Under the pieces are notes generated by a model that was given only the letters and a program-made list of their open reading frames with translations, was not told where the DNA came from and did not search any database. A stretch of DNA of 64,000 bases, from the sequence record OR896824.1; one strand, given 5' to 3'. Source of the stretch: Escherichia phage SmurfNell. Within the stretch, counting starts at the first letter, position 1. Each line of letters starts with the position of its first letter. A program made the position numbers and the translations under genes. Below are positions 3,150 through 37,754 of the stretch, in pieces.

Positions 3150-4618
3150 ATATCGCTGGCCTGTTCACCTGTTGAATTTTCAGCTTTGTCTTTCTTAGCA
3201 CGTTTAGGTTGAGCTGGTTTATCCTTTTCAATAGGAATAACGAACTCAGCTTCCATTTGCGCAATATCTTCCATTGCTAGGTTGGTAGTGTTATCCATTC
3301 GCAGAGTTTCCCAGTTCATCTTAGGCATAAACTTCACACTATCAGAGGAACGAGTCTTAACGAAGTCAAACATAATAGCACCTTGACCATTATCAGCTTT
3401 TGCAGCATTAAGATTAGCAGCCATATCTGCGGAATCAAGAATCCCTTTAGACATACGCGTTCTACCATCTTGGTCAATCTGGTAAGGAGCAACACCAGCC
3501 ACGTTATGTTTCTGGCAGATAGATTTGAAAGACGAACTAACAACCATCTGTTCTTTCCAGTCATACATGTCAATGGTCTTTGAATCTGGAAGTCTTGTTT
3601 GGTTAATATAGTCTAGAAGAGCTACAGTAACCTTATCACCATACTTAGCAACTAGTTTATTTAATTCTACGTCAACCGTCGTAATAGACAGTTCAGGATC
3701 GTAAACGATGATCATAGGAGTGTGAAGCTCATAGCCTTCAAGGAGTTTACTTTCCATATCATAGAAGTCACTCATTTTAGCCATAGTGTATTGCTTAACG
3801 AAGTTATCGAAAAGCTCTTCACCACCATTAAACATCCTAGCCCTAGTTCTAGCTAATCTCAACAGAGCAGCACCTTCAAGAGTGTTATTACGCATTGCTA
3901 ATGCAGATACTCCAGCTAACATAGCCAGATTACGTCTAAACACTTCGTGCTCTTTCATCTCAATTGAGAAATATGGAGCAATGTCTCCATTCAAATATTG
4001 CTGAACCTGTATGTTTGAACAGATAATGGATTTACCAGTACCACGCCAACCACCAAGCAGTAACGTTTCTGTGCGAGCTAAACCAATTTGAGCGTCGAAC
4101 TCATTACAAATACCAAGAGCGATCAAGTTCAGTTTGGTATCTTCTTCTCTCTGGAAAATACGCATTGTGTCTGCGTTGAATACCTTTCCAGTATTCGTTA
4201 CTTTCTCTTCTAATTTTAAGTGAAGGGAGGCAACTCGGTTGAGAATTTCTCCCTGATCCAGCATTGTTAAATCTTGAAGCACGTCTGTTTCTAGAAGTTT
4301 CAGGAATAGATCCTGTGTATATTCGGCTTCTAGGACTTCAAGCGCCTGTTCCATGCTCACTTCTGGAATTTGAGTGTTAGCTAAGACGACAAGAGCTTGA
4401 GAAAGGCGGGCGTTCCTATTGGCCTCAAGCATCAGTGCGTCAATGGACGGCATTGCGTTATATTTCTTATAATAATTCTGGACGGCTTGGTAAATTGAGG
4501 AGAAAGCGTCATTAAAATGATCTTTATGCAGTTTTGAGAATGTTTCCAATGCTTCTTGCTTCTGTTCAGAAGCAAGAAGCATCTTCAACACTACAGCTTG
4601 CACGTTAAACAAGGTCAT
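3146..4618 (-). CDS. Replicative DNA helicase (DnaB-like); start uncertain (ORF extends to 4669)
   Basis: Walker A GGWRGTGKS and DnaB-like architecture; ATG at 4618 has an AAGGAG RBS, whereas the ORF-track start at 4669 lies inside the upstream terminator hairpin. Confidence 0.75.
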   Translation of the reverse strand: MTLFNVQAVVLKMLLASEQKQEALETFSKLHKDHFNDAFSSIYQAVQNYYKKYNAMPSIDALMLEANRNARLSQALVVLANTQIPEVSMEQALEVLEAEYTQDLFLKLLETDVLQDLTMLDQGEILNRVASLHLKLEEKVTNTGKVFNADTMRIFQREEDTKLNLIALGICNEFDAQIGLARTETLLLGGWRGTGKSIICSNIQVQQYLNGDIAPYFSIEMKEHEVFRRNLAMLAGVSALAMRNNTLEGAALLRLARTRARMFNGGEELFDNFVKQYTMAKMSDFYDMESKLLEGYELHTPMIIVYDPELSITTVDVELNKLVAKYGDKVTVALLDYINQTRLPDSKTIDMYDWKEQMVVSSSFKSICQKHNVAGVAPYQIDQDGRTRMSKGILDSADMAANLNAAKADNGQGAIMFDFVKTRSSDSVKFMPKMNWETLRMDNTTNLAMEDIAQMEAEFVIPIEKDKPAQPKRAKKDKAENSTGEQASDI

Positions 4619-4700: not shown

Positions 4701-5468
4701 TTATTCAGCAGCCGCAGCTTTTGCATCCAGTTTAGCACGCTTAGCGGCACCATCATAGTCCTTAGCAACCAGACCACGACGAGACAGCATAGATTTAACA
4801 CCGCGCTCAGACTTACCAGTTTTCTCAGCGATCTCAGCAACAGTCATGTTAGCCAGATCCAGACCTTCTAACAGATCTTCACGAGTTTTAGCACTTGAAG
4901 TTTCCTGTACCGGCATAGCAGCGATACGACCTTCACGAAGCAGACTCAGAGCTTTACCACGGATCTGCTTAATATTGCGACCGAAGTGAGCAGCGATAGC
5001 TTCAATAGTAGCACCAGCAACAACCTGATTAACGAAATCAGTTTCTTCGTCAGGAGTGAAGGAACGAACAGCAGCAGCTTTTTCGGTTGGCTTAACAGAA
5101 GCAGTCATTTCCAGACTCAGGATCTTACCCTGTACCTGCTTAGCACCGAACTGACCACCAGCTACAGCAGCAGCGATTTCAGCGTAAGTATACTGACCAG
5201 CATGAGCGTTCAGGAAATCAACCAGTTCAGCTTCCTGCTCAGGAGTCCACGGGGATTTCTGTACTTCGTTAGCTTTCTGTACTTCGAAACCTTCTTTACG
5301 CAGCTTAGATCCAACAGAGCGAGCGGTAACGTCTTTACCAGTCTCGGTAGCCAGTTCAGCAGCGATAGCAGCTACTTGTTCTTGAGAGATTACAGCAACA
5401 CCCAGAGCAGTGGCTTTTGCTTTCAGAGACTCGGTTACACCTTCTACGTTCCAGTTCAGTTTAGACAT
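4701..5468 (-). CDS. Ala-rich putative DNA-binding protein with three HTH-like repeats
   Basis: 255-aa ORF with three repeated HTH-like modules (YAEIAAAVAGG, IEAIAAHFGRN, VAEIAEKTGKS); codon usage resembles highly expressed E. coli genes. Confidence 0.6.
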   Translation of the reverse strand: MSKLNWNVEGVTESLKAKATALGVAVISQEQVAAIAAELATETGKDVTARSVGSKLRKEGFEVQKANEVQKSPWTPEQEAELVDFLNAHAGQYTYAEIAAAVAGGQFGAKQVQGKILSLEMTASVKPTEKAAAVRSFTPDEETDFVNQVVAGATIEAIAAHFGRNIKQIRGKALSLLREGRIAAMPVQETSSAKTREDLLEGLDLANMTVAEIAEKTGKSERGVKSMLSRRGLVAKDYDGAAKRAKLDAKAAAAE

Positions 5469-6243
5469 TATTATTTTTCTCCAATAGTTCTTTAATCGAC
5501 AGGATTTCTATCCCATTCGTTTCGGCTTTCTTATAAGATGAGGAAGAACGTTTTGATTCATCCTCACAGATTAGGTATTTGACGTCTTTGGTAACGGACT
5601 TCTTAACCGTATATCCTAGACTTTCTAAATAGTTTGTTGCATCCGTTCGATTTGCAAAATCTTGCAAAGATCCGGTAATACAGACCGTGATTCCATTTGG
5701 CTGGGCAACTAAATCATCTGTAATGATGATATCCGCTTTAGCACCTCGAATACCCGTTGAGAATTTCCACGGTAATTCAATAACATCCTTGCCTTGTGGG
5801 GAATTTAGCCAGGTTTTGTAATTTTCTCCAGCCTTGCCGTCAGCCTTCACATCGTGGAAGCTAGTGCAATTTTGGGACAGTTTCTTTGCTGCAACCTCTC
5901 CAATAAGAGGAATTCCTAAAGAACCGAGAACTGAACCAAAGTCAATGTCTCCGCGAACCTTAGTATTTAACTCGCTAATCAATTTAGCGGCAACCTTGCT
6001 ACCCACAGCTCCGACCAAATCTTCTTCGGTCAGGTAAAACAGTTCTGAGATCTTAGTCAGCTCCAGCTTCTCAATAGTTTTCGGGCCAAAGCCCTTTAAC
6101 TTCATTTTTGTGCAGAAGTTCTCGATTAACTTACTTGATTGCGCTGGACAGTTGGACTTATTCCTACAGAATAATTGCCCGTTGACAAGATCTAGCTTAG
6201 AACCACAAGAGGGACATTGTGTTGGAATTTCGATTTTCATCAA
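5461..6243 (-). CDS. ligB: NAD-dependent DNA ligase, C-terminal subunit (Zn finger, HhH, BRCT)
   Basis: CPSCGSKLDLVNGQLFCRNKSNCPAQ zinc finger and BRCT-like C-terminus typical of the LigA C-terminal half; own promoter and RBS upstream. Confidence 0.75.
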   Translation of the reverse strand: MMKIEIPTQCPSCGSKLDLVNGQLFCRNKSNCPAQSSKLIENFCTKMKLKGFGPKTIEKLELTKISELFYLTEEDLVGAVGSKVAAKLISELNTKVRGDIDFGSVLGSLGIPLIGEVAAKKLSQNCTSFHDVKADGKAGENYKTWLNSPQGKDVIELPWKFSTGIRGAKADIIITDDLVAQPNGITVCITGSLQDFANRTDATNYLESLGYTVKKSVTKDVKYLICEDESKRSSSSYKKAETNGIEILSIKELLEKNNNV

Positions 6244-6270
6244 ATTTCTTCCTTATCAATTTATATAAAT

Positions 6271-6299
6271 ATTATAGCAAGTATTTAAGCATTTAGCAA
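6271..6299 (-). promoter_or_regulatory. T5-type sigma70 promoter upstream of ligB (minus strand)
   Basis: Reverse complement reads TTGCTA-17 nt-TATAAT; lies in the gap between ligA and ligB. Confidence 0.6.
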
Positions 6300-6442
6300 C
6301 TACAATTTTAACTAACTTTGCTTACCCTCGCCATAACTTTCTATCCCTCAACTGAATGATAATAGTATATACCTAAGCGGCGAAAATGTCAATAACCACT
6401 TTATAATTCCGACATGGTAAACGGGTAGCAAAGGGTTACGAA

Positions 6443-7414
6443 TTAGTCGTATACTCGCTCTACTATACAAGGGATTACACCACCAGCACGAATCACTCGA
6501 ATCTGGCAACCGATCTCTAAATCGAGAGCGTTAATATAATCAACGTTATTAAGAGTTGCTTTAACAATTGTGGCATCATCAATAATCACCGGCTCGAAAT
6601 AACCAACTGGAGTTACTTTACCAGAAGCCCCTACTTGCCATTCAACTTTAACAAGTGTGGTAATTTCGCCTTCTTCATCCTCTTTAATAGCAAATGCACC
6701 ACGAGGAAATTTATTAGTCCAACCTTCGCGATAGAATTTGTTGTTGTCATTAATACGAACAACTTTACCATCCGTCGGAATCCACTTAAAGAAGGAACGC
6801 ACGTTAACAACTGTTAAGAAGTTCTCATTCTCTAACCAAAGCATATCTTTTAAATAGGCTTCTGTAATACCGACTGTTTCCGCTGAACACTGGATACCAT
6901 ATGCAACGAAGATTAACCCACCTTCACCAATACGTTGCATGAAATCATCACTGTCTTTCAGGTTAATAGCACCAGAAGCGTAGTTACGCTTGTTCTCTAC
7001 TTCTTTAGTAATGAGAACTTCACCAGTGATTTGAGTTGGTACTTTTTGGGAAATAGTTTTGGGGATGTTCAGCATTTTAACATTATTCGTTACATCATTC
7101 CCTAGAATACCGTTACCACGAGTTAACGCTTGAACAAATTCACCATTAATGTATAATAGAGAAATCGCACAACCATCTAACTTATCAGTTTCAACCTGAC
7201 CTAATGGATTAAACGGAGCTTTATCACCACGATCGTAATAGACTTTCTGTAAAGAATACATACGATACAAATGAGGAATATCACCTTTCGGCCCGATTTC
7301 TTCCTCTAACGGGAATCTTTTAATCAGACGATCATATTCTTCATCGGAAATAAGACTCATTCCCTGGTAGTACGCTTCTTGACAACGTTTGATAAAGTCT
7401 TTTACATTATTCAT
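6443..7414 (-). CDS. ligA: NAD-dependent DNA ligase, N-terminal adenylation/OB subunit
   Basis: KxDG adenylation motif (ETDKLDGCAIS) and N-terminal Ia-like region (YYQGMSLISDEEYD); encoded separately from the C-terminal half. Confidence 0.75.
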   Translation of the reverse strand: MNNVKDFIKRCQEAYYQGMSLISDEEYDRLIKRFPLEEEIGPKGDIPHLYRMYSLQKVYYDRGDKAPFNPLGQVETDKLDGCAISLLYINGEFVQALTRGNGILGNDVTNNVKMLNIPKTISQKVPTQITGEVLITKEVENKRNYASGAINLKDSDDFMQRIGEGGLIFVAYGIQCSAETVGITEAYLKDMLWLENENFLTVVNVRSFFKWIPTDGKVVRINDNNKFYREGWTNKFPRGAFAIKEDEEGEITTLVKVEWQVGASGKVTPVGYFEPVIIDDATIVKATLNNVDYINALDLEIGCQIRVIRAGGVIPCIVERVYD

Positions 7415-10382: not shown

Positions 10383-10611
10383 CTTCTTTAATTAATTCTC
10401 CTAATTCCTTATAAACACGTTCTAACTCAAAAGGGATACGTAAGGATACTCGTACCTTACGTTGTTTTAATAGCCATATAGATACGTTCGGAATACCAGC
10501 CAATCTGGGAGGGACCACTCGGCATAGTTTCTCCGCAGTATCGTAAACAGAAGTTTTACGTTCTTTTACGTAAAACTTCCTTGTTTCCCACTTTTTATTC
10601 TTCGCTGTCAT
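10360..10611 (-). CDS. hypothetical basic protein (about 83 aa)
   Basis: Small ORF between the HNH gene and the 929-aa gene; start at 10611 chosen to minimise overlap, uncertain. Confidence 0.35.
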   Translation of the reverse strand: MTAKNKKWETRKFYVKERKTSVYDTAEKLCRVVPPRLAGIPNVSIWLLKQRKVRVSLRIPFELERVYKELGELIKEDDNSRRG

Positions 10612-13384
10612 TTCTAGCCCCCAATTCAGCAAGAGCTTCCTCATGCATCTGACGTTCTTCATCTGTCATAAACTTAACTGGAATCGGCATACATTCGATC
10701 TTACAGTAAGTTCTGTACCAGTCCACAATCTTTTCCGTATCCAGATCTTTACCGATACCCATCATGCCAAGATACATACGAGCATATTTTGGGTTAGCGC
10801 TCTGACCTGTCTTAAGGAAGAAATCCTTCTTCTTATTCTTAAGAGCTTCGATAAACGGTTTGATTGTTACGTTTGAACACTTTTTAATATCTTCCCAGAA
10901 CATGTCGTGCATCTTATGGAAGAATGCAGCTCTATCGTTTGGTTTATCCTTGATATACTGTTCAACGTGTTCCACTGTTACATCTTTAATAGAATCCAGA
11001 TGATAATAGCGAACCAGAAGCAATTTAGCTTCATAGGCATCTGCATGACGTGGTGCGCAATATTCAGGAGTTGAGTGCAAAATAGCTTTGATTCGCTCTT
11101 CTGTATACTCTTTGCCTGCACCTTCGATAGTTCCCCAGCTTTCACTGAAAATATCAATAGTTGCACCCTGATCAAGCAGATAATAACGCAAAGTACTAGT
11201 ATAGTTTCTGGACTCCAGTTCACGACGACGTGCATACAGCTGCTGAGCTAACTCAACCCAACCCTCATCAATATTATATTGCTCGGAACCCGCAGAAAAT
11301 CCACTCGTAGATTTATCAATAAAATAATAAATGTTCTGAGCACCACGGTCGCGCCTGATTGCTTGGAAACGCATGTTTGGCGCTTGGTTTGAGGTTCTAG
11401 TGATAACAAATACGTTATCAAAATAGTTAAAGTCAACGCCACTCGTTACAGATGGACTACATAACAAACAATCAATCTGTTGATCAATTAGCTCATTAGT
11501 AGTGTAATCCAGAATACGTCGGATATCTACATCAGACGTAGAGTTTGAGTGAATTTCTTTAACTAACGCACCAGTGTTACGACGTAACGCCATCCCCTTT
11601 TCATTCAGTTCATCTGGCCCACAGTCAGATACTAGGATTGATTTCTCCCCCATCTCTAGTGAAGTCTGGAGTGCGACCCAAATACTGGATTCATCAGGGA
11701 ACTCATATGCATGAGCTTTTGCCAGCATTTTACGGTGATGATTATAGAACGCGACCGGTTTATCAAAATCAATCAAAGAACCATAGGCTTCAATCGTTTC
11801 TGCACTGATATCACCATCAGATAAGATAACCGTTTTTGCAGTAATAAGAATATCGCGAAGAACCTGAATACATTCACGACGGTTTTTAACAACCGGGGCG
11901 AATAACAGATCATTCATTACTGCGTCACATTCATCAATAAAGATCGTATCAATCTGACCCACAAAGCTCTTGAACTTATGGATAGAGTGAATAGTTGAAG
12001 ACATACGATCAATAGCACCACGTTTGAAGTTCAGCATATCAACTGACTTATCATACTGACCAGCACCGAATTTCTTCGCGTTTGAAGATACAAGTGCCCT
12101 AGTATTCGTGATTGCAATAAAGTTTCCTGGAAGAACACCTGCATCTAGCCACTTAGTTACTGCTGTGGTTTTACCTGTACCAAGACTTGCCTTAACAAAT
12201 GTTAAATGTCCTTTTGGGGGTACAATGTTAATCTTCAAGTATGGAACTTCTGGCGGTGAATCTGTGTCCAGACGCTTTAGTGGTACACCTTTTAAGTTGG
12301 GTGGAATCTCACGTTTGGAGTTATTCACAAAGGCTTTTAGAGCCTGCTTACGACCGTTATTAAAGTAATCTTGAATATTACGACTATTATCTTTAGTTGC
12401 AATATATTCAGATAAAGCTGGTTTAATCTCACGTTCTAACCACGTAAAGTCAACACCATCTTCTAACGCTCTGTGATAAAGTTTTGGGATAATACGCAGG
12501 TACACCCCATCCTCAGCTTCTTCTAGTTCGCTGATGGTTTCTTCCACTTTATCAGATGCAGCCTTCTTGCCTTTAATTTGGTCAAGTAAGGAGTAGAATT
12601 CTTCTTTAAACTCACCTCTAGTTGTTTCAAAGTCAACTAGGTTATTGGGTAGATTCACTTTCGAACCCTTAACATACACAAGACGTGGTTTATTCTCCGC
12701 TTTAAACGGATCGACTATACCATCATCAAATAAGGGATCTGCGAAATAGTGAAGCTGAACAGAAGAATAATAAGCTAAGTCAGCAATATCAAAGCCATAC
12801 TTTTGCTTACTACTGTCATTGATGGATGTAAATAAGAATTTTAATTGCCCCTGCGTTACCTTGACATTAGATTCTAGCATTAAGTGCATTCGGATACCTG
12901 GTTTTAATCCAGCCGAAGACGATGCATGAGCAATAAACCCTGCATCAAGAGGAAACATATCCTCACTAATACTATTCAACATCTTAATAATATGACGTGC
13001 CATGCCAACAAGATTAAACTTGTCATAGCCACCAGTATCTACAATACCATCCACGTCCATAGCAATAATATGACTAGGATTGGATACGTTAAAGTTTCCC
13101 CTGGTACGACGCACATTATCTTTTGGAGCTAAACATTTACCACGAATAGCTACAATATGCGGGTCTTTGGTAAGACGACGCATGATAGGTAACATTTCAG
13201 CAAGGTTTTGCGGGTCAAGTTCTTCAAGTACATCAAATTTGAAGGGCATGGAAGCTGGTTTACCTTCTGGATGCTCTTTAGAGAATCGCTTTGCAAAGGT
13301 GTAATCTTCCACTTTGATCTCTTTCCAGATGCCAGTGGCTTTATCTCTGGAAAATCCTGCGTGACCTTGTAGGATTGAGAACAC
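10595..13384 (-). CDS. putative replication origin-binding / helicase-like protein (929 aa from GTG 13384)
   Basis: Walker A LGTGKTT and Walker B FIDECD in the central region; GTG start at 13384 has an AGGAG RBS 8 nt upstream, while the ORF-track ATG at 13507 adds an implausible Cys-rich N-terminus. Confidence 0.65.
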   Translation of the reverse strand: MFSILQGHAGFSRDKATGIWKEIKVEDYTFAKRFSKEHPEGKPASMPFKFDVLEELDPQNLAEMLPIMRRLTKDPHIVAIRGKCLAPKDNVRRTRGNFNVSNPSHIIAMDVDGIVDTGGYDKFNLVGMARHIIKMLNSISEDMFPLDAGFIAHASSSAGLKPGIRMHLMLESNVKVTQGQLKFLFTSINDSSKQKYGFDIADLAYYSSVQLHYFADPLFDDGIVDPFKAENKPRLVYVKGSKVNLPNNLVDFETTRGEFKEEFYSLLDQIKGKKAASDKVEETISELEEAEDGVYLRIIPKLYHRALEDGVDFTWLEREIKPALSEYIATKDNSRNIQDYFNNGRKQALKAFVNNSKREIPPNLKGVPLKRLDTDSPPEVPYLKINIVPPKGHLTFVKASLGTGKTTAVTKWLDAGVLPGNFIAITNTRALVSSNAKKFGAGQYDKSVDMLNFKRGAIDRMSSTIHSIHKFKSFVGQIDTIFIDECDAVMNDLLFAPVVKNRRECIQVLRDILITAKTVILSDGDISAETIEAYGSLIDFDKPVAFYNHHRKMLAKAHAYEFPDESSIWVALQTSLEMGEKSILVSDCGPDELNEKGMALRRNTGALVKEIHSNSTSDVDIRRILDYTTNELIDQQIDCLLCSPSVTSGVDFNYFDNVFVITRTSNQAPNMRFQAIRRDRGAQNIYYFIDKSTSGFSAGSEQYNIDEGWVELAQQLYARRRELESRNYTSTLRYYLLDQGATIDIFSESWGTIEGAGKEYTEERIKAILHSTPEYCAPRHADAYEAKLLLVRYYHLDSIKDVTVEHVEQYIKDKPNDRAAFFHKMHDMFWEDIKKCSNVTIKPFIEALKNKKKDFFLKTGQSANPKYARMYLGMMGIGKDLDTEKIVDWYRTYCKIECMPIPVKFMTDEERQMHEEALAELGARNDSEE

Positions 13385-13880
13385 AACAATACTCCTATGT
13401 TGGTTATTCGGATATCTTTCTTTAGGACTATTCAAAAGAATAGAACAACTATTACTACCATTTACACAAACATTAATCATCATCAAGCAGTATGAATAAG
13501 TTATCATACCTCAGTGCTGCGCTCTCTTAACTCTTATCCAGATCAGAACCTAGGTCATTGGCCGCTAAGCCGATTCTGATTGCCCTCACTATCCTATTGG
13601 TAGGTGGCTACTGGACGTGTCACCATTCGCTGCTCTTTTCGTTCGCACCCCCATATAAAGCTCTGCCTATATAACGAGCTAAATATGCACGGTTTGGATT
13701 TACCTTTCCGAATTCAGGGTACGCAGATCACTTAATTGATAATTAACTAATGCAGTATAAACACTAGTAATAGTTAAAACAACCCTTAATGGGGCAGCCT
13801 AACTGTTCCGTATTGCGGATTGTAAACAAGAAAAATTAGCAAAATCAATTTTTACTAATGTCTCTCAATTCAATATAAAT
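13385..13880 (-). other. long ORF-free leader / possible structured RNA upstream of the 929-aa helicase-like gene
   Basis: About 500 nt between minus-strand promoter 13881-13909 and the GTG start at 13384 with no ORF of 60 aa or more on either strand; locally GC-rich segment at 13540-13660. Confidence 0.3.
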
Positions 13881-13909
13881 ATTATATCAAGATTTTGAGC
13901 ATCCTGCAA
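13881..13909 (-). promoter_or_regulatory. T5-type sigma70 promoter with ~500-nt leader (minus strand)
   Basis: Reverse complement reads TTGCAG-17-TATAAT; nearest downstream start is the GTG at 13384. Confidence 0.5.
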
Positions 13910-14000
13910 GTAAAATTTTTCCGAAGGTGCTATCAGTGTCCTTGAGCACAGAGAAAACCGAGTCATTTTGACTCGGTAATCAGGATTGAGCTAATGAAAA

Positions 14001-14396
14001 TCAATCATCATTTAGGCCTGGGACATAGATTCCAATGCGATTTAATTGACCTTTAGCTTCTTCGAGAATATCTTCGGTGTACTCCCAAATATCATCTTCT
14101 ACTTGCAAAAGATAAGGGGATTCACCAGTTTCGGGGTCACGTGTAATGGCTAAGCCACGTGGATGGAATATAGAGAAGTTGAGGGCAACAATCAAGCCCA
14201 TGCTGGACAATTCATTCCAGTCAGCTTCCCAACCATCATCTTCATCTTCGTCCACAAAGACACCTACACTAGGGTCTGTTACAGAAGTAAACGGAAATGT
14301 TACACTAACCTTGTCAACCCCCAACCAACGTGCAAGGAGCCCTTCAGCACGCTCTACCAAACTAGGATCTATCTGACGCCAAAATACTTGTTCCAT
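14001..14396 (-). CDS. hypothetical protein, paralog A (131 aa)
   Basis: Shares conserved segments with the adjacent 142-aa ORF (W.EL..MGL..ALN...F.P....I.....TGE.P). Confidence 0.55.
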   Translation of the reverse strand: MEQVFWRQIDPSLVERAEGLLARWLGVDKVSVTFPFTSVTDPSVGVFVDEDEDDGWEADWNELSSMGLIVALNFSIFHPRGLAITRDPETGESPYLLQVEDDIWEYTEDILEEAKGQLNRIGIYVPGLNDD

Positions 14397-14405
14397 TCTG
14401 CCTCC

Positions 14406-14834
14406 TTAAGCAGTTAAACCTGGGATCATATACCCGAAACGACGAAGTTTCTGAATCCCCTCATTTACTTCTTCGGGCGAATATGACCAGCCCTCACGTT
14501 CATTTACCTGGAAAGCAGGAGCTTCACCAGTGCGATAGTTTACAATAAGACGGTGATTTGCAGGCATAAACAGCTTATGGTTCAAGGCAAAAACCAGACC
14601 CATTTCATCTAGTTCTTTCCAGTCTACAATTTCTTCTACTCTCTCACCTAAATCCACGCTAACTCCAATACATGGAGCTTCCTCTAGTGGGCCTTTAAAG
14701 GATAGGAAGATATCGTTATTCTCACACCAAATCTTAAGCAGATTGATGGTTTCATTATACATACCATTAGGGAGAGAACGCCAGAAGTTGAGGAGCATAG
14801 GGTTTACCTCTTTCATGAAAAGATTATCGAACAT
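14406..14834 (-). CDS. hypothetical protein, paralog B (142 aa)
   Basis: Tandem paralog of 14001-14396. Confidence 0.55.
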   Translation of the reverse strand: MFDNLFMKEVNPMLLNFWRSLPNGMYNETINLLKIWCENNDIFLSFKGPLEEAPCIGVSVDLGERVEEIVDWKELDEMGLVFALNHKLFMPANHRLIVNYRTGEAPAFQVNEREGWSYSPEEVNEGIQKLRRFGYMIPGLTA

Positions 14835-14836
14835 AT

Positions 14837-15376
14837 TTACACCTTAAGTTTCTGAAGAGCCTTACACATTTCAAGATCTGGACTAAACTCCAGCATATAG
14901 CTGATAGCATTTAAATCTTGAAGGTTTATTCCAGTCCTGCCATTTACAATAACAGTAGGGAATTGGTACATCATAGCACCAGCATCATCTAGGACACACC
15001 AATGCTTGAGCTTATATTTTTCGACGAAACGTAAAACAGAATTACCCCGAGATAAACCACCTCCAGTAAAATCTGTTGTACCAAGGAAACGATCGATCAA
15101 ACCGAGCCCGGTCATAATCTGAACGTTCTCCATCTCATTTCGTACAGAAAACCATGAAGATACCCCAACAATCATTATTGGGGATGGCTTAAGAAAGTTC
15201 TGAAAAGCCTGGAGTAATGGCTTGTAAACCCAATCACCACCAAAGAATAGCTTCTCACTATCTGGAGCATGATGGTGAGAGATGCTCGAATTGAGCACCC
15301 CATCAATATCCAGGAAAATCACAGGAGTATTACTTATTTCCACCAGTAGCATCCCACGTCCAGACTTTAACTTCAT
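14837..15376 (-). CDS. HAD-superfamily-like hydrolase (putative nucleotidase/phosphatase)
   Basis: HAD motif I FLDIDGVLN near the N-terminus and conserved downstream Asp (WCVLDD). Confidence 0.55.
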   Translation of the reverse strand: MKLKSGRGMLLVEISNTPVIFLDIDGVLNSSISHHHAPDSEKLFFGGDWVYKPLLQAFQNFLKPSPIMIVGVSSWFSVRNEMENVQIMTGLGLIDRFLGTTDFTGGGLSRGNSVLRFVEKYKLKHWCVLDDAGAMMYQFPTVIVNGRTGINLQDLNAISYMLEFSPDLEMCKALQKLKV

Positions 15377-15515
15377 CAGTAAAAGGAACTGGAACCTTCA
15401 ATTCACCTTTACCCCACATAACAGATAGGAACAGAGAATAAATGGTAATCATACCGATTAGGTTGACAAACCATACTAGACCTTTCCAGATACCCTTAAA
15501 AATCTTCTTCACCAT
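15330..15515 (-). CDS. small membrane protein (about 61 aa)
   Basis: Internal ATG of ORF 15330-15638 yields a hydrophobic peptide (LVWFVNLIGMITIYSLFLSVMW); fits the gap between Sir2 and the HAD gene. Confidence 0.35.
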   Translation of the reverse strand: MVKKIFKGIWKGLVWFVNLIGMITIYSLFLSVMWGKGELKVPVPFTDEVKVWTWDATGGNK

Positions 15516-15663
15516 ATTCTCCCTCCTTAATAAGGAACTCTTTCCATTCTGCTGTATCCTCATAGATAACGCAGAAATCATCACTCTTCCATGAGAAGTC
15601 ATCAGTAGCAAATTCGAAACGGTAGCACCAACTACCATCTGGCCATACTAAAAGATCACACAT
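15496..15663 (-). CDS. small acidic protein (about 55 aa)
   Basis: ATG at 15663 overlaps the Sir2 stop (ATGTGTGA arrangement). Confidence 0.35.
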   Translation of the reverse strand: MCDLLVWPDGSWCYRFEFATDDFSWKSDDFCVIYEDTAEWKEFLIKEGEYGEEDF

Positions 15664-16507
15664 GCTTTTCTGGGACATAAATATTTCCCTCCATAAAAGC
15701 TTCAACTTGATCAATAAAGTGTTTATTACCAAAAACTTCGGCAGCTCCAGCACGCCATACAGTAACACCACGTTTCTCATACTCAAGCTGTTCGTCATAA
15801 CGAACTTGTGGGTTAACAACCATCATCTTAGTTCCACGACATACAGCAGGAAATAATTCCCAGTTGAAGTTGATAACTTGGTTACTACAACCCACCACAA
15901 TAACCATGTCATTGCTAGTAAGAGTATCAAACAGGTTGATTTGACCCATGTACCACGGAGCTGTCTCACCAAAGAACACCACGTTTGGTTTTACCCATTC
16001 GTAATCTTCAGGGGCAATCGCAGTATACCCAACATCTTCGATGATTTGATTGCGACCCTGATGATAGATCACCTCTTTCAAGTACCCGTGAGCGTGAATG
16101 ATTTCATCACGAGGGATACCAGCACGTTCCAGAAGGTCATCAACGTTAGTAGTGAAGTTCTTCACGCTACCCGCATCATAACGCTGGAACCATTCTGCAA
16201 TTCGCAGATGGGCAATGTTAGGCTCAACAGTCTGTAGTTCCTGACGACGCATGTTGTAGAACTCATGAGTCTTGAGATACAGATCGTTACCATCTTCATC
16301 AATGCCAGGGAAACGAGCGCTGAAGTAGTTAGGATCATCTTCACCACAGAAGCGACGGAAGCCAGCTTCAAAGTTAGGCAAGCTACATACTTCCTCTAGA
16401 TCGTACTCATCCCACAAAGATTTTCCACTAGCAGTATCAGTACGGAAAGCACGAACACCACTATCTACACTCAAACCTGCACCACTAACAACAATTAGTC
16501 TACGCAT
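15656..16507 (-). CDS. Sir2-family (sirtuin-like) NAD-dependent protein
   Basis: Sirtuin signature GAGLSVDSGVRAFR near the N-terminus and TNVDDLLERAG...HG central motif. Confidence 0.7.
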   Translation of the reverse strand: MRRLIVVSGAGLSVDSGVRAFRTDTASGKSLWDEYDLEEVCSLPNFEAGFRRFCGEDDPNYFSARFPGIDEDGNDLYLKTHEFYNMRRQELQTVEPNIAHLRIAEWFQRYDAGSVKNFTTNVDDLLERAGIPRDEIIHAHGYLKEVIYHQGRNQIIEDVGYTAIAPEDYEWVKPNVVFFGETAPWYMGQINLFDTLTSNDMVIVVGCSNQVINFNWELFPAVCRGTKMMVVNPQVRYDEQLEYEKRGVTVWRAGAAEVFGNKHFIDQVEAFMEGNIYVPEKHV

Positions 16508-16701
16508 TATACGATTCCTTGCTTGAATCCTTCGATGATATTTTGGAGCAGAATTGCTTCTTCTGGGCGAACCTTCTCTTGCTTAATAAGCATATCCAAA
16601 CCAGCAATACAGGTAGCTACTCCAGCATTATACCCAGCATTCCACTGCTCCATAAGCATATTTTCTAAATTACTTTTTAGATTCTGATTCAAGAAGTCCA
16701 T
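16507..16701 (-). CDS. hypothetical protein (64 aa)
   Basis: ATG at 16701 preceded by a strong GGAGG RBS. Confidence 0.45.
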   Translation of the reverse strand: MDFLNQNLKSNLENMLMEQWNAGYNAGVATCIAGLDMLIKQEKVRPEEAILLQNIIEGFKQGIV

Positions 16702-16873
16702 AAAGTTTTTCCTCCAATTCCATAATACGATTTTCGTAAGAAGCACGCAGCTTCTCGATGGACAAAGCACGAACTGTAACTTCATCTGAATTGATCGCTA
16801 GCTGAGCTAGATCTTCTGTTTCCATACGTCCGTTGTAAATTAAGCGATATTTAAGATGTTTTACGTTTTTCAT
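16670..16873 (-). CDS. hypothetical protein (67 aa)
   Basis: ORF with AAGGA RBS. Confidence 0.45.
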   Translation of the reverse strand: MKNVKHLKYRLIYNGRMETEDLAQLAINSDEVTVRALSIEKLRASYENRIMELEEKLYGLLESESKK

Positions 16874-16882: not shown

Positions 16883-17164
16883 TTAGTTCTGTACTGTAAA
16901 TTCATTCTTATCACAGTGAGCATAATAATATCCATACATACGATAAATTTTCACAGCCTTAGTAGACCCCTTCGATTCTTCATAATCAATCCAGAGCCAC
17001 TTGTCTTTACCTACATAATGTACCCGAAACTTCTTAACTTTCTTATCATTCCATGTTGCAACAACACGACGATAATCAAATCCGCCCAACCAATCTAGAG
17101 CCTTACGTTCTTCACTAGGCTCTCCAAGATAGGAAACATCTACTTTCGGAAGCAATTCGCTCAT
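16883..17164 (-). CDS. hypothetical protein (93 aa)
   Basis: First ORF downstream of minus-strand promoter 17193-17221; GAGAGGAG RBS. Confidence 0.55.
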   Translation of the reverse strand: MSELLPKVDVSYLGEPSEERKALDWLGGFDYRRVVATWNDKKVKKFRVHYVGKDKWLWIDYEESKGSTKAVKIYRMYGYYYAHCDKNEFTVQN

Positions 17165-17192: not shown

Positions 17193-17221
17193 ATTATACA
17201 TAAGTTTTAGCTCGAAAGCAA
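17193..17221 (-). promoter_or_regulatory. T5-type sigma70 promoter (minus strand)
   Basis: Reverse complement reads TTGCTT-17-TATAAT followed by TGATTTATAAATTTGAGAGGAG leader. Confidence 0.6.
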
Positions 17222-17256
17222 ATAAAATAAAAGCCAGGTCGACTAGCAACCTGGCT
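17221..17256 (-). terminator. rho-independent terminator downstream of nrdD (minus strand)
   Basis: AGCCAGGT...ACCTGGCT hairpin followed by UUUAUUUUAUU on the minus-strand transcript. Confidence 0.6.
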
Positions 17257-35436: not shown

Positions 35437-35466
35437 ATATTTATAAATTTGAGAGAGGAATCAAAT

Positions 35467-36522
35467 ATGATTAAGACTGGTCTAGTAATTGGTAAGTTCG
35501 CGCCATTAACGCGTGGTCATATTAACCTAATAAACACAGCAGCAACTATGTGTGAACGAGTTATTGTTGTAGTTAGTCATGATAATCGTTGGCTGGATAA
35601 GCAGAACACACGTGATCAGGAAGTATTACAGTTAAAGAATCGACTTCGTTGGTTAGAACAAACTTACGCGGATATTGAGCACATTTCGGTAGAGTACATT
35701 ATTGAAGATGATATTCCTGAATATCCGAATGGTTGGCCGGAATATGCTAGAATCCTTAATGAAAATTACGGACATTTGCCTGAGATCACCGTTTTCTCTA
35801 GCGAACTAGACTATGATGCAGAATATAAGAAATATCTGCCGAAGTTTGGTCATTATATTGTAGATTCTGATCGGACTCGTGTTCCAATCTCAGCTACAAT
35901 GATTCGTAATGATCTTATGAAGTATTGGGAGTTTCTTCCTAGCGTAGTTCGTAAAGATTACGTGCGTAAGGTTGTAATCATTGGGACTGAAAGCTCGGGA
36001 AAGACTACTTTAACAAAATACCTTGCGAAGCTATACAACACTTCGTGGGTAGAAGAATATGGCCGAACGTATTGTGAAGTTGATCTAGTTGGTAACGAAA
36101 ATCTACTTATCAGTGAAGATTACAGTAAAATTGCGTTCAGACACAAAGAGCTAGAGTTTGAGGCAGAACGTACTGCAAATAAGATCATGTTTGTAGACAC
36201 AAATGCTTTTATTACTGAGTTCTACCACAGACTTTATGAACATCGTAAGAATCCTGTGGTTACAGCAATTGCAAAAGAAGAACATTACGATTTAGTAATT
36301 GTTCTAGCGCCTACTGTTAAGTGGGTAGATGATGGTTTACGTATTAACTCCGATCGTTCAATTACTTCTGAACTGTTCGAGCAGATGAAGAAAGAATTTC
36401 CAAATCAGTTCCCTGAAGGGCGTACTGTTTACATCGACTCCCCGGACTACAAAGTTCGTATGGACGAAGCAGTAAACGCAGTAGACTGGCTGATTCATCA
36501 CTTTAACGTTGGAGAGTTTTAA
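35467..36522 (+). CDS. nadR: NadR-like bifunctional NMN adenylyltransferase / ribosylnicotinamide kinase
   Basis: Cytidylyltransferase (H/T)xGH motif region (GKFAPLTRGHINLI) followed by a P-loop kinase domain (VVIIGTESSGKTTL); start 35467 after GAGAGAGGAA RBS. Confidence 0.75.
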   Translation: MIKTGLVIGKFAPLTRGHINLINTAATMCERVIVVVSHDNRWLDKQNTRDQEVLQLKNRLRWLEQTYADIEHISVEYIIEDDIPEYPNGWPEYARILNENYGHLPEITVFSSELDYDAEYKKYLPKFGHYIVDSDRTRVPISATMIRNDLMKYWEFLPSVVRKDYVRKVVIIGTESSGKTTLTKYLAKLYNTSWVEEYGRTYCEVDLVGNENLLISEDYSKIAFRHKELEFEAERTANKIMFVDTNAFITEFYHRLYEHRKNPVVTAIAKEEHYDLVIVLAPTVKWVDDGLRINSDRSITSELFEQMKKEFPNQFPEGRTVYIDSPDYKVRMDEAVNAVDWLIHHFNVGEF

Positions 36523-36523
36523 T

Positions 36524-37201
36524 ATGACTAACTATCTTGTAAATGACTTTAAAAACTGGAAACCTTTGGAATATCTGTGGCTGTTTATAGCAGTCGCCTT
36601 TATTAGTTTAGCAAACTATAATGGTACAGCTCTAGATTGGGCTACTGCAATAACCAATGTGGTTTGTGTTATTCTGGTTGCAAAAGGACGTGTTTCCAAC
36701 TATATTTGGGGCTTAGTGGGTGTTCTTACATATGGTATTACAGCTTTAAACGCAGATCTTTATGGTAACGCTGCACTAAACCTGCTATACTACGTTCCTA
36801 TGCAGTTTTATGGAATGTACTTATGGCATAAAAATAAGCCAAGTAATCTGCCAGATGTTCCAACTAAGTTTCTGACTAAAGCCCAAGCTCTGCTGACTCT
36901 AGGGATTCTAGCAGTAGCCACGTTAGGGTATGGTAGTTTCTTAGCTACTACAGCTGATCCATTCCCAATGCTCGATGCATTTACTGCGGTTGGTAGTGTG
37001 ATCGCTATGTGGCTTATGGTTAAGCAGTATGCCGAGCAGTGGCTGATCTGGATTGCTATTAACATTGGTACTGTGTACATTTGGCTTGTAACTGCTCAAT
37101 CTACAGGTGCATCTTATGCAATCCTAGCAATGTGGCTAGTATTCTTAGGTAACTCTATTATGGGAGCCTATAAAGGATACTTTGTACGCGTTAACAAATA
37201 A
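36524..37201 (+). CDS. pnuC: PnuC-like nicotinamide riboside transporter
   Basis: About 225-aa polytopic membrane protein with Trp/Tyr-rich motifs (NYIWGLVGVLTYG, LYYVPMQFYGMYLW) typical of PnuC; overlaps nadR stop. Confidence 0.7.
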   Translation: MTNYLVNDFKNWKPLEYLWLFIAVAFISLANYNGTALDWATAITNVVCVILVAKGRVSNYIWGLVGVLTYGITALNADLYGNAALNLLYYVPMQFYGMYLWHKNKPSNLPDVPTKFLTKAQALLTLGILAVATLGYGSFLATTADPFPMLDAFTAVGSVIAMWLMVKQYAEQWLIWIAINIGTVYIWLVTAQSTGASYAILAMWLVFLGNSIMGAYKGYFVRVNK

Positions 37202-37207
37202 AGTAGT

Positions 37208-37236
37208 TATAGCCCTCGCTTAGAGGGCTATTATAC
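37208..37236 (+). terminator. putative terminator downstream of pnuC
   Basis: TAGCCCTC-GCTTA-GAGGGCTA hairpin followed by a weak T-run. Confidence 0.4.
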
Positions 37237-37248
37237 AGAAATTTTCAC

Positions 37249-37277: not shown

Positions 37278-37307
37278 ATATTTATAAATTCGAGAGAGGA
37301 ATCAAAC

Positions 37308-37749: not shown

Positions 37750-37754
37750 GATTT

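What the first reader, a model, noticed from the sequence alone, without database searches (positions are those of the whole stretch)
14001..16507. Accessory cluster on the minus strand: Sir2-like protein, two overlapping micro-ORFs, HAD-like hydrolase and a tandem paralog pair
Between the replication block and nrdD lies a compact set of non-replication genes: a sirtuin-like protein with the GAG..G..AFR signature, two very small overlapping ORFs, a HAD-motif hydrolase (FLDIDGVLN) and two paralogous proteins of unknown function. A phage-borne Sir2 alongside an NAD salvage operon elsewhere suggests deliberate manipulation of host NAD or ADP-ribose metabolism, possibly as an offensive or anti-defense system.
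Basis: partly seen in the sequence, partly recalled or inferred. Interest (0 to 1): 0.65.

Follow-up and report, generated by a model that had tools for sequence, protein, structure and literature searches.

The report
Phage sirtuin and phosphatase gene cluster
A T5-like phage carries a real early operon with a zinc-less sirtuin, a tiny partner protein, a HAD phosphatase and two DUF7415 proteins; the operon was already annotated and already predicted to be an NAD-using RNA-repair module, and nobody has tested its function.

Summary
The window is an Epseptimavirus (T5-like). In this region it is 99.8% identical to Escherichia phage SuperGirl (Bas29).

The genes form one nine-gene early operon (17164 to 14001, minus strand). 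A T5-type promoter precedes it and terminators bound it on both sides.

- **Sirtuin:** it matches Pfam SIR2 and folds like E. coli CobB. It keeps the catalytic His and the class-III Y-x-x-R motif. It lacks the zinc cysteines and the canonical Gln of QNID, falls below every deacylase equivalog cut-off, and matches no defence-type SIR2 model.
- **HAD protein:** it is a HAD_SAK_2 phosphatase with all four catalytic motifs.
- **Prior work:** this sirtuin plus HAD neighbourhood in T5-like phages was described by Iyer et al. (2022). They predicted NAD-dependent RNA-end repair, analogous to Tpt1/KptA.
- **Context found here:** relatives of the same genes sit beside RNA ligases, kinases and cREC, or beside NadV/Prs NAD-salvage genes.
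- **Dispensable:** phage DT57C has deleted the sirtuin and HAD genes, and Sugarlandvirus lacks HAD.
- **NAD salvage operon:** it is NARP3 (35449-37201), a proven counter-defence system. It occurs in only a subset of phages that carry the cluster.

Verdict: real and already known, with function untested. RNA-end healing is the best reading, at about 0.4.

The parts
17232..17256 (-). Intrinsic-terminator-like hairpin just after the nrdD stop; upstream boundary of the operon
   Evidence: 10-bp stem with 6 GC pairs, followed by TTTATTTTAT; sequence read
17193..17221 (-). T5 early-type sigma-70 promoter: TTGCTT, 17-nt spacer, TATAAT, then ATAAATTTGAGAGGAG and ATG
   Evidence: Read directly. The same element sits at the same place in Tequintavirus DT571/2. 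S114 annotates a putative promoter here. It was not picked up by the consensus scan because the -35 hexamer matches only 3 of 6. Its resemblance to the classical T5 PN25 promoter is from memory.
16883..17164 (-). Small gene, 93 aa, unknown function (bas29_0056 homolog)
   Evidence: phrog_7953 E=1e-64; no Pfam hit
16670..16873 (-). Small gene, 67 aa, T5.101 homolog, unknown function
   Evidence: phrog_5236 E=2e-46; 86% identical to the DT571/2 homolog
16507..16701 (-). Small gene, 64 aa, unknown function; its stop codon shares base 16507 with the sir2 start codon
   Evidence: phrog_5827 E=6e-33; annotated in SuperGirl
15656..16507 (-). Phage-clade sirtuin, 283 aa. It keeps GAG, FR, Y84-x-x-R87, N121, D123 and H140. 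It has no Zn-binding cysteines and has T in place of the Q of QNID.
   Evidence: Pfam SIR2; phrog_2162 E=2e-107; alignment to CobB; clade alignment; AF2 pLDDT 87.9; Foldseek top hits are CobB 6rxq and 1s5p, target-normalised TM-score 0.83; below NCBIfam cut-offs; no PADLOC hit
15496..15678 (-). Micro-ORF 1, 60 aa, motif W-P-D-G-S-W-C-Y-R, T5.104 family; overlaps the sir2 end by 23 nt; follows sir2 in most T5-like lineages examined
   Evidence: phrog_5116. Found directly after sir2 in Epseptimavirus, Tequintavirus, Sugarlandvirus and the divergent contig L010. Not detected in 4 of 27 Markadamsvirinae loci or in L047.
15330..15515 (-). Micro-ORF 2, 61 aa; basic N-terminus followed by about 22 hydrophobic residues, so probably a single-pass membrane protein; restricted to the Epseptimavirus type
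   Evidence: phrog_11166 E=3e-44; 221 records, absent from Tequintavirus; hydrophobic stretch read from the sequence
14837..15343 (-). HAD-superfamily phosphatase of the HAD_SAK_2 family, 168 aa from the GTG start; alternative ATG starts at 15352 and 15376
   Evidence: Pfam PF18143. Motifs conserved across 15 homologs: I D12-x-D14, II S62/S63, III R99, IV D119/D120. No homolog in the PDB by sequence.
14406..14834 (-). DUF7415 paralog A, 142 aa, T5.106 family
   Evidence: PF24187 E=2e-36; 70% identical to the T5-type ortholog, 31% to its neighbour
14001..14396 (-). DUF7415 paralog B, 131 aa, T5.107 family
13957..13977 (-). Terminator-like hairpin 24 nt after the last stop codon; downstream boundary of the operon
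   Evidence: 9-bp stem followed by a T-rich tail; sequence read
35449..37201 (+). The 'NAD salvage operon elsewhere': NadR-like NMNAT plus ribosylnicotinamide kinase, and a PnuC transporter; this is NARP3
   Evidence: Pfam CTP_transf_like plus AAA_28, and NMN_transporter; NARP3 characterised in Bas30 (PMC13464706)

Best explanation
The cluster is an accessory early operon of T5-like phages. Its core is a phage-specific sirtuin paired with a HAD_SAK_2 phosphatase. The most likely role is NAD-consuming healing of damaged RNA ends, above all tRNAs cut by host anticodon or other metal-independent nucleases.

Proposed mechanism (inferred, not shown):
1. Host nucleases leave 2',3'-cyclic phosphate ends, which open to 2'- or 3'-phosphates.
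2. The HAD enzyme removes a terminal phosphate, as the HAD-type phosphatase domain of T4 Pnkp does.
3. The sirtuin uses NAD+ to remove a 2'-phosphate by ADP-ribosyl transfer, as Tpt1/KptA does. The phosphate oxygen attacks C1'' of NAD and nicotinamide leaves. The ribose 2''-OH, activated by His140, then resolves the adduct. This is the same sequence of steps a sirtuin performs on an acyl oxygen.
4. The healed ends are rejoined or extended by host enzymes. No RNA ligase was found in this window, and none is annotated in the related SuperGirl genome.

The 60-aa WCYR protein usually follows the sirtuin gene and is probably its partner or regulator. The DUF7415 pair is an accessory factor of unknown fold and unknown activity, linked to the phosphatase and, in other phages, to RNA ligase 1.

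Shown: gene identities, catalytic motifs, operon structure, gene linkages and dispensability. Inferred: substrates and every biochemical step.
For: 1. Published prediction for exactly this neighbourhood. Iyer et al. 2022 describe a sirtuin plus Swiss-army-knife HAD in Escherichia phage SP15. SP15 is a T5-like phage that carries the same DUF7415 protein (P0150).
2. In rV5 the 47%-identical sirtuin lies in an RNA-repair gene set next to a tRNA cluster: calcineurin-like phosphoesterase, AAA_33 P-loop kinase, Rnl1 RNA ligase, cREC, then the sirtuin.
3. Sir2-HAD linkage survives rearrangement. HAD lies upstream of Sir2 in the divergent T5-like contig L010. The two are adjacent in L047. They are linked in 27 of 27 Markadamsvirinae loci from IMG/VR.
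4. HAD and DUF7415 lie on either side of T4-type RNA ligase 1 in Aeromonas T4-like phages. DUF7415 starts at the Rnl1 stop codon.
5. Contig L055 has one gene string: Rnl2-type RNA ligase, NMNAT-Nudix, NadV, a nucleoside deoxyribosyltransferase-like gene, then HAD_SAK_2. This ties the phosphatase to both RNA ligation and NAD supply.
6. The sirtuin keeps its NAD-binding and catalytic residues and an anion-binding Y84-x-x-R87 pocket. It has lost the Zn module, has T for the canonical Q, and scores far below all deacylase equivalog cut-offs.
7. The Tpt1 two-step chemistry is as stated in PMC11417386.
8. The phage carries a large tRNA gene set.
9. sir2 shows allele replacement between genera: 52% identity, against 70-88% for the flanking genes. 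This is typical of conflict genes.
10. Sir2 and HAD were lost together in DT57C.
Against: - No RNA ligase, cREC or rV5-type kinase homolog is in the window, and none is annotated in the related SuperGirl genome. The pathway would depend on host enzymes.
- The nearest relatives by sequence and fold are true protein deacylases: CobB, Sir2-Af1 and SIRT5. The FGE loop and the class-III Y-x-x-R motif are retained, which fits deacylation of succinyl or malonyl lysine equally well.
- HAD also sits with Prs and NadV in Serratia phage ChuuTotoro, a genome with no sirtuin at all. The HAD may therefore act on a nucleotide or sugar phosphate rather than on RNA.
- The closest non-T5 sirtuins (Phapecoctavirus, 60% identity) have uninformative neighbours.
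- No sirtuin has ever been shown to act on an RNA phosphate. No experimental paper turned up in the literature searches.
Confidence: 0.4

Rival explanations
1. The sirtuin is a CobB-like NAD-dependent lysine deacylase (deacetylase or desuccinylase). It resets acylation of host or phage proteins, for example acetyl-CoA synthetase or replication and nucleotide-metabolism enzymes, to favour phage replication. The HAD and DUF7415 genes are functionally unrelated neighbours.
For: The top sequence and structure matches are E. coli CobB (E=5e-16; Foldseek E=1e-15, target-normalised TM-score 0.83), followed by Sir2-Af1 and SIRT5. The catalytic His, N121, D123, the FFGE loop and the class-III Y-x-x-R motif are invariant in the clade. 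Skliros et al. 2016 proposed deacetylase function for the Vibrio phage homologs.
Against: The protein scores 37-92 bits against NCBIfam deacylase cut-offs of 221-395. All four Zn cysteines are absent, and the canonical Gln of TQNID is Thr in all 26 clade members. Linkage to phosphatases, RNA ligases, kinases and cREC is conserved across unrelated phage families. The host already has CobB.
Confidence: 0.25
2. Sirtuin and HAD act on small molecules of the NAD/ADP-ribose network rather than on RNA. For example, they might process ADP-ribose phosphates, NMN or NADP, or recycle products of host NADases into the salvage pathway, or destroy NAD-derived immune signals.
For: HAD_SAK_2 lies in an operon with PRPP synthetase and NadV in ChuuTotoro and in a JGI contig, and with NadV and NMNAT-Nudix in L055. 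ChuuTotoro has no sirtuin. This phage also encodes NARP3. CobB-type sirtuins were first noted for phosphoribosyl transfer (quoted).
Against: No Macro, Nudix, NADAR or SLOG partner is present in the operon. NARP3 is present in only a subset of phages that carry the cluster. L055 and the Aeromonas phages also link HAD to RNA ligases. The rV5 context of the sirtuin is RNA repair.
Confidence: 0.17
3. The sirtuin is an offensive mono-ADP-ribosyltransferase or NADase that modifies host macromolecules or drains host NAD.
For: Some sirtuins ADP-ribosylate proteins (the SirTM class, cited). The gene is expressed from a strong early-type promoter.
Against: There is no match to any defence-type SIR2 NADase model and no Macro-domain antidote gene. 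NAD depletion would starve the phage's own NAD-dependent DNA ligase and oppose NARP3. The gene is dispensable in DT57C.
Confidence: 0.08

Closest known systems
Phage 'RNA-repair' sirtuin clade and its three gene neighbourhoods (Iyer, Burroughs, Anantharaman, Aravind 2022, Viruses 14:1977, PMC9503650); type 3 is the Escherichia phage SP15 type
   Same: It is the same clade and the same neighbourhood: a sirtuin plus a Swiss-army-knife HAD phosphatase in a T5-like phage. The rV5-type neighbourhood was re-verified here.
   Different: The paper's text, as read here, does not mention several features found here. These are the conserved 60-aa WCYR partner, the DUF7415 pair and its coupling to Rnl1, the HAD-Prs-NadV operons, and the DT57C deletion. 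The prediction is computational and remains untested.
E. coli CobB and class III sirtuins (SIRT5)
   Same: Same fold (target-normalised TM-score 0.83), GAG/FR NAD loop, catalytic His, N and D of QNID, FGE loop and Y-x-x-R anion pocket.
   Different: No Zn-binding cysteines. Gln replaced by Thr in QNID. A 30-residue insertion (residues 47-76) is present in some members. Scores are far below the equivalog cut-offs. The clade is phage-restricted.
Tpt1/KptA RNA 2'-phosphotransferase
   Same: The proposed reaction is the same: NAD-dependent removal of an RNA 2'-phosphate through an ADP-ribosylated intermediate (mechanism in PMC11417386). The genomic company is the same: ligase, kinase and cyclic phosphodiesterase analogs in rV5.
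   Different: The fold is unrelated (ART superfamily versus Rossmann sirtuin). This is an analogy only, and no activity has been shown.
T4 Pnkp plus Rnl1 tRNA repair system
   Same: A HAD-type phosphatase with a DxDG motif, plus an Rnl1 ligase. The Aeromonas T4-like phages place HAD_SAK_2 and DUF7415 around Rnl1.
   Different: The T5-like operon has no kinase and no ligase. The phosphatase is a stand-alone protein of a different HAD family.
Defence-type SIR2 NADases (ThsA, DSR1/2, Sir2-HerA, SIR2-APAZ)
   Same: Sirtuin superfamily and NAD as substrate.
   Different: No PADLOC match. It matches PF02146. It is phage-encoded and has no sensor or partner domains.
NARP3 (PnuC plus NadR-like; Yan et al. 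2026, PMC13464706)
   Same: Present in this window at 35449-37201. It is NAD-centred counter-defence in the same phage group.
   Different: It is a separate operon on the other strand about 19 kb away. It is found in only about 200 T5-like records. The paper does not mention the phage sirtuin.

Membership tests
Sirtuin superfamily (Pfam SIR2 PF02146) | Profile match above the gathering score | tested here: met
   78.4 bits against a cut-off of 24, E=8e-22
Sirtuin superfamily | NAD-binding GAGxS...G..FR loop and catalytic His in the HG motif | tested here: met
   G9 A10 G11 S13, F21 R22, and H140 G141 are invariant in 26 clade members and aligned to the CobB motifs
Sirtuin superfamily | Sirtuin fold: Rossmann domain plus small domain | tested here: met
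   AF2 pLDDT 87.9. The top 50 Foldseek hits against the PDB are all sirtuins; best is CobB at E=9e-16.
Canonical protein deacylase sirtuins (CobB equivalogs, class III) | Cys4 zinc-binding module (CxxC...CxxC) | tested here: not met
   The CobB cysteine positions are Tyr or deleted. No conserved Cys lies in 141-172 in any of 26 sequences.
Canonical protein deacylase sirtuins | TQNID motif with invariant Gln (invariance is from my own knowledge of sirtuin motifs) | tested here: not met
   The clade has T-T-N-V-D. T120, N121, V122 and D123 are invariant, aligned to CobB TQNID.
Canonical protein deacylase sirtuins | NCBIfam equivalog score cut-off | tested here: not met
   Best score is 92 bits against a cut-off of 243. 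CobB equivalog: 75.7 against 320.
Class III sirtuins (CobB/SIRT5) | Y-x-x-R pocket for anionic acyl groups | tested here: met
   Y84 and R87 are invariant and aligned to CobB FYNARR
Canonical protein deacylase sirtuins | NAD-dependent deacylase activity | not testable with these tools
   Needs an enzyme assay
Defence-type SIR2 NADases (ThsA, DSR, Sir2-HerA, pAgo-associated) | Match to defence-system SIR2 models, with an associated sensor or partner | tested here: not met
   No PADLOC hit for any of the nine operon proteins. There are no HerA, TIR, SLOG or pAgo neighbours.
HAD superfamily phosphatases (HAD_SAK_2 PF18143) | Profile match above the gathering score | tested here: met
   65.5 bits against a cut-off of 27.5
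HAD superfamily phosphatases | Four catalytic motifs: DxD nucleophile, S/T, K/R, acidic DD | tested here: met
   D12-I-D14, S62/S63, R99 and D119/D120 are conserved in 15 homologs
Phage RNA-repair sirtuin system (Iyer et al. 2022) | Sirtuin of the phage clade in a conserved neighbourhood with RNA-end-processing enzymes and no Macro partner | tested here: met
   The sirtuin is 47-63% identical to the rV5, Phapecoctavirus and Sugarlandvirus members. HAD_SAK_2 lies in the same operon. There is no Macro domain.
Phage RNA-repair sirtuin system | RNA ligase and polynucleotide kinase in the same phage | tested here: not met
   No homolog of rV5 Rnl1, kinase, cREC or phosphoesterase in the 64-kb window. 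None is annotated in SuperGirl except a small P-loop protein labelled 'putative polynucleotide kinase'. That protein is absent from this window and is not similar to the rV5 kinase.
Phage RNA-repair sirtuin system | RNA 2'-phosphotransferase or end-healing activity | not testable with these tools
   Needs biochemistry. No experimental report was found.
DUF7415 (PF24187) | Profile match above the gathering score | tested here: met
   124.6 and 98.2 bits against a cut-off of 27
NARP3 (PnuC plus NadR-like) | Adjacent NMNAT-RNK bifunctional enzyme without an HTH domain, plus a PnuC transporter | tested here: met
   CTP_transf_like plus AAA_28 in a 357-aa protein, followed by NMN_transporter. Its counter-defence activity was shown only for Bas30.

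The most novel reading that the evidence does not exclude
The operon is a ligase-less, NAD-consuming tRNA or RNA end-healing counter-defence module. In it, a zinc-less sirtuin acts with an obligate 60-aa WCYR partner and performs Tpt1-like removal of 2'-phosphates. That would be the first sirtuin to act on a nucleic-acid phosphate. The HAD enzyme clears the other terminal phosphate or the ADP-ribose phosphate by-product. The DUF7415 proteins, which have an orphan fold and are translationally coupled to Rnl1 in Aeromonas phages, would be a new class of RNA-repair accessory factor.
Probability: 0.3. Interest if true: 0.7.

Novelty: already known. Interest (0 to 1): 0.35.

Why it matters
Phage sirtuins occur in about a thousand sequenced phages, yet none has a demonstrated substrate.

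If the RNA-repair reading is right, a sirtuin would be a functional analog of Tpt1. T5-like phages would then have a way to survive host tRNA-cleaving defences alongside NARP3.

The natural pair DT57C (sir2 and HAD deleted) and DT571/2 (intact), together with the BASEL phages, makes the question directly testable.

In practice, the result also corrects a widespread annotation error, in which the HAD gene is labelled 'Sir2'.

Tried and rejected
- **Defence-type SIR2, or any defence protein.** PADLOC gave no hit for any of the nine proteins.
- **Structured RNA in or around the cluster.** Rfam found nothing at E up to 1.
- **Internal duplication within each DUF7415 protein.** The Pfam model matches two stretches per protein, but hhalign of the N-terminal half against the C-terminal half gave only 6.6% probability. 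This is left unresolved.
- **A solved-structure relative of the HAD.** Sequence search returned only His-tag artefacts.
- **An RNA ligase, cREC or kinase in the window.** tblastn with the rV5 proteins found none.
- **SuperGirl's 'putative polynucleotide kinase' as the missing kinase.** It is absent from this window and not similar to the rV5 kinase.
- **Phapecoctavirus neighbours of the 60%-identical sirtuin.** No informative Pfam or PHROG annotation.
- **Domain fusions of DUF7415.** Only one informative fusion was found, to thymidylate kinase in P0231.
- **Window identical to SuperGirl.** Rejected. The window is 82-99% identical in blocks, with indels.
- **Literature on DUF7415 or HAD_SAK.** None found.


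Full report
**Identity of the window**

The 3.8 kb around the finding is 99.8% identical to Escherichia phage SuperGirl (Bas29, MZ501105; Demerecviridae, Epseptimavirus). It matches 555 phage records at the DNA level. Over the whole window the match to SuperGirl comes in blocks of 82-99% identity with indels, so this is a close relative and not the same phage.

**Observation**

- The 283-aa protein at 15656-16507 matches Pfam SIR2 (78 bits, cut-off 24).
- The 168-aa protein at 14837-15343 matches HAD_SAK_2 (65.5 bits, cut-off 27.5).
- The two proteins at 14406-14834 and 14001-14396 both match DUF7415. They are 31% identical to each other.
- The two micro-ORFs (15496-15678 and 15330-15515) match PHROG families at E=4e-29 and 3e-44. 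They recur in 483 and 221 phage records, so they are genuine genes.

The unit is larger than reported. Three more small genes lie upstream (16883-17164, 16670-16873, 16507-16701).

The nine genes are tightly packed or overlapping. They are bounded by a terminator-like hairpin after nrdD (17256-17232) and another 24 nt after the last stop codon (13977-13957).

They are preceded by TTGCTT, a 17-nt spacer, TATAAT and then ATAAATTTGAGAGGAG. The same element is present at the same place in the T5-type phage DT571/2. From memory, it resembles the classical strong T5 early promoters such as PN25.

**The sirtuin**

By sequence, the closest solved structures are E. coli CobB (E=5e-16) and then the archaeal Sir2-Af proteins; SIRT5 matches more weakly. 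The AlphaFold model (pLDDT 87.9) matches CobB best, with a target-normalised TM-score of 0.83, then Sir2-Af1 and SIRT5.

In an alignment of 26 clade members the following residues are invariant:
- G9-A10-G11-x-S13, F21-R22;
- Y84-x-x-R87, which is the class-III anion pocket, aligned to CobB FYNARR;
- N121 and D123;
- the catalytic H140-G141;
- F178-F179-x-E181, G206-x-S208 and N232.

Three canonical features are missing:
- The four zinc cysteines are absent. The CobB positions are Tyr or deleted.
- The Gln of TQNID is Thr throughout the clade.
- Every NCBIfam deacylase model is hit far below its curated cut-off, at best 92 bits against 243.

No defence-type SIR2 model matches.

The clade is found in 980 phage records:
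- Epseptimavirus, 96-100% identity;
- Sugarlandvirus, about 63%;
- Phapecoctavirus, about 60%;
- Tequintavirus including T5, only about 52%;
- rV5, about 47%;
- Vibrio schizoT4 and jumbo phages, about 30%.

Loss of the zinc site in Vibrio phage homologs was already noted by Skliros et al. 2016. They proposed deacetylation of acetyl-CoA synthetase.

**The HAD protein**

Motifs I (FLDIDGVLN; D12, D14), II (S62/S63), III (R99 in GGGxxRG) and IV (D119/D120) are conserved across 15 homologs. An active phosphatase is therefore expected. There is no solved relative by sequence.

**DUF7415**

The tandem pair is old. Each paralog is about 70% identical to its ortholog in Tequintavirus but only about 30% to its neighbour, and Sugarlandvirus has both.

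An exhaustive HMMER search of 1.84 billion representatives found 138 hits at E up to 0.001. About twenty cover most of the two-module profile. Most of the others match only the C-terminal module, mainly in proteins of 60-200 aa, and a few are very long repetitive proteins that are probably spurious. One protein is fused to a thymidylate kinase.

**Prior knowledge**

Iyer, Burroughs, Anantharaman and Aravind (2022) defined a distinct phage sirtuin clade that they predict acts in NAD-dependent RNA repair, analogous to KptA/Tpt1. They listed three neighbourhoods. The third is 'Escherichia phage SP15: sirtuin plus Swiss-army-knife HAD phosphatase'.

SP15 is a T5-like phage that carries the same DUF7415 protein. 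The core of this finding is therefore already published as a computational prediction. I found no experimental study.

**Context evidence gathered here**

1. rV5. The gene order is calcineurin-like phosphoesterase, AAA_33 kinase, Rnl1 ligase, cREC, sirtuin, then a gene annotated as nucleotide pyrophosphohydrolase. This string lies beside the tRNA cluster. Together these supply the healing, sealing and 2'-phosphate-removal steps of a fungal-type tRNA ligation pathway.
2. Sir2-HAD linkage.
   - It holds in 27 of 27 Markadamsvirinae loci from IMG/VR and in L047.
   - It survives inversion of gene order in the divergent T5-like contig L010, which reads NrdD, HAD, an 81-aa gene, Sir2, a 61-aa gene.
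3. The WCYR micro-protein. It follows the sirtuin gene in Epseptimavirus, Tequintavirus (as T5.104), Sugarlandvirus and L010. It was not detected in four of the 27 Markadamsvirinae loci or in L047.
4. Aeromonas T4-like phages (avDM12-TAAL, AsFcp_1 and four IMG/VR genomes).
   - The order in the annotated record is td, HAD_SAK_2, one gene, denA, Rnl1, DUF7415.
   - In the five of these genomes where DUF7415 was detected, it starts at the Rnl1 stop codon.
5. Contig L055. It reads Rnl2-type RNA ligase, NMNAT-Nudix, NadV, a nucleoside deoxyribosyltransferase-like gene, HAD_SAK_2.
6. HAD with NAD salvage.
   - In Serratia phage ChuuTotoro and in a JGI contig, HAD lies in an operon with PRPP synthetase and NadV.
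   - In ChuuTotoro this operon sits upstream of the tRNA cluster.
   - ChuuTotoro has no sirtuin anywhere in its genome.

The HAD thus has three recurrent partners: the sirtuin, RNA ligases and NAD salvage genes.

**Dispensability and evolution**

DT57C carries a 90-aa chimeric remnant, made of Sir2 residues about 195-235 fused to the HAD C-terminus. It was created by two deletions relative to DT571/2. DT57C therefore lacks the sirtuin, T5.104 and HAD, but keeps the DUF7415 pair.

Sugarlandvirus has the sirtuin, the micro-ORF and the DUF7415 pair but no HAD.

Between Tequintavirus and Epseptimavirus the sirtuin is 52% identical. The flanking HAD is 88% identical, the DUF7415 genes 70-71% and T5.101 86%. 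This indicates allelic replacement of sir2 within a conserved frame.

**The NAD salvage operon**

The window encodes a NadR-like NMNAT plus kinase (35449-36522) and PnuC (36509-37201). This is NARP3, shown in Bas30 to restore NAD and overcome Sir2-HerA and DSR1. That paper does not mention the phage sirtuin.

Close NadR-like homologs occur in about 200 T5-like records, against 498 records for HAD. The two modules are therefore not obligatorily coupled.

**Interpretation**

The best-supported reading, at about 0.4, is the published one: an NAD-consuming RNA-end-healing module that counters host RNA or tRNA nucleases. The chemistry is plausible because the sirtuin and Tpt1 mechanisms run in parallel. 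In both, an oxygen nucleophile attacks C1'' of NAD, and then the ribose 2''-OH resolves the adduct (the Tpt1 steps are given).

The weaknesses are these:
- No phage ligase or kinase was found in the window, and none is annotated in SuperGirl.
- The protein retains deacylase-like features.
- The HAD is also associated with NAD salvage.

Rivals:
- CobB-like deacylase, 0.25.
- Small-molecule NAD/ADP-ribose processing, 0.17.
- Offensive ADP-ribosyltransferase or NADase, 0.08.

**Verdict**

The feature is already annotated and its context is published, so novelty is low. The open question of what substrate phage sirtuins act on remains, and it can be tested experimentally.

Noticed in passing
window 14837-15343; RefSeq records listed: Many RefSeq and pharokka-type annotations list 'Sir2 (NAD-dependent deacetylase)' twice in this cluster. 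The second label sits on the HAD gene. PHROG 18062, labelled Sir2, matches only the HAD C-terminus (residues 77-168). The likely origin is chimeric 'defective Sir2' ORFs such as the one in DT57C, which fuse a Sir2 fragment to the HAD C-terminus. This is an annotation artefact.
   Followed up: yes
L016 (DT57C NC_027356) 2968-3240, compared with L004 (DT571/2) 5001-6491: There is a natural double deletion in DT57C. It removes most of sir2, T5.104 and most of the HAD gene, leaving a 90-aa chimeric ORF. The DUF7415 pair is intact. DT57C and DT571/2 are a ready-made near-isogenic pair for phenotype tests.
   Followed up: yes
window 17193-17221 (-) and L004 4433-4465: The operon promoter (TTGCTT, 17-nt spacer, TATAAT, then ATAAATTTGAGAGGAG) is conserved between Epseptimavirus and Tequintavirus. 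From memory, it closely resembles the classical strong T5 early promoters such as PN25.
   Followed up: partly
window 15496-15678 (-): The 60-aa protein with the motif W-x-[DN]-G-x-W-C-Y-R follows the sirtuin gene in most T5-like lineages examined, whatever the position of HAD. It also occurs in 29 Erwinia phages and in Pseudomonas phage phCDa. It may be a sirtuin partner or regulator. It was not detected in four Markadamsvirinae loci (L035, L036, L040, L045) or in L047.
   Followed up: partly
L007 6924-7157, L015 7296-7529, L049, L050, L052 (Aeromonas T4-like phages): A single-module DUF7415 gene of 77 aa starts at the stop codon of T4-type RNA ligase 1. A HAD_SAK_2 gene lies about 2 kb upstream, after td. 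L051 shows HAD and Rnl1 but no DUF7415 hit. The arrangement suggests DUF7415 is an RNA-ligase-associated factor.
   Followed up: partly
L011/L017 (Serratia phage ChuuTotoro ON287369) 35888-39104; L012; L055 3049-8489: HAD_SAK_2 also lies in NAD-salvage operons. In ChuuTotoro the order is HAD, PRPP synthetase, NadV, next to a 22-tRNA cluster, in a genome with no sirtuin. In a 62-kb viral contig the order is Rnl2-type RNA ligase, NMNAT-Nudix, NadV, a nucleoside 2-deoxyribosyltransferase-like gene, then HAD.
   Followed up: partly
window 15656-16507 compared with L004 5001-5825: sir2 is only 52% identical between Epseptimavirus and Tequintavirus, while the flanking genes are 70-88% identical. The Epseptimavirus allele is closer to the Sugarlandvirus (63%) and Phapecoctavirus (60%) alleles. 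This looks like allelic replacement by horizontal exchange.
   Followed up: partly
window 35449-37201 (+): NARP3 operon: a NadR-like NMNAT plus ribosylnicotinamide kinase, and a PnuC transporter. It was experimentally characterised in the sister phage Bas30 in 2026.
   Followed up: yes
window about 5461-7414 (-): The NAD-dependent DNA ligase is annotated in SuperGirl as two separate subunit genes (B and A). This is another NAD-consuming enzyme of the phage. Coordinates were transferred from SuperGirl using the offset.
   Followed up: no
window 61262-61307: About 0.7 kb present in SuperGirl is missing here. It holds the 140-aa P-loop protein annotated 'putative polynucleotide kinase' (bas29_0173) and the next small gene. 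The window is a mosaic relative of SuperGirl, 82-99% identical in blocks.
   Followed up: partly
window 13508-14000 (-): There is a 490-nt gene-free stretch between the operon terminator and the helicase/primase gene. It contains two promoter-like elements (TTGCAG, 17-nt spacer, TATAAT near 13910-13882; TTGATT, 18-nt spacer, TACAAT at 13848-13819) and a leader that folds somewhat better than shuffled sequence (z=-2.4). There is no Rfam match.
   Followed up: partly
window 10595-13507 (-): The mechanical ORF of the helicase/primase gene extends 41 codons upstream of the start annotated in SuperGirl (13384). The extra N-terminal stretch is probably not translated.
   Followed up: no
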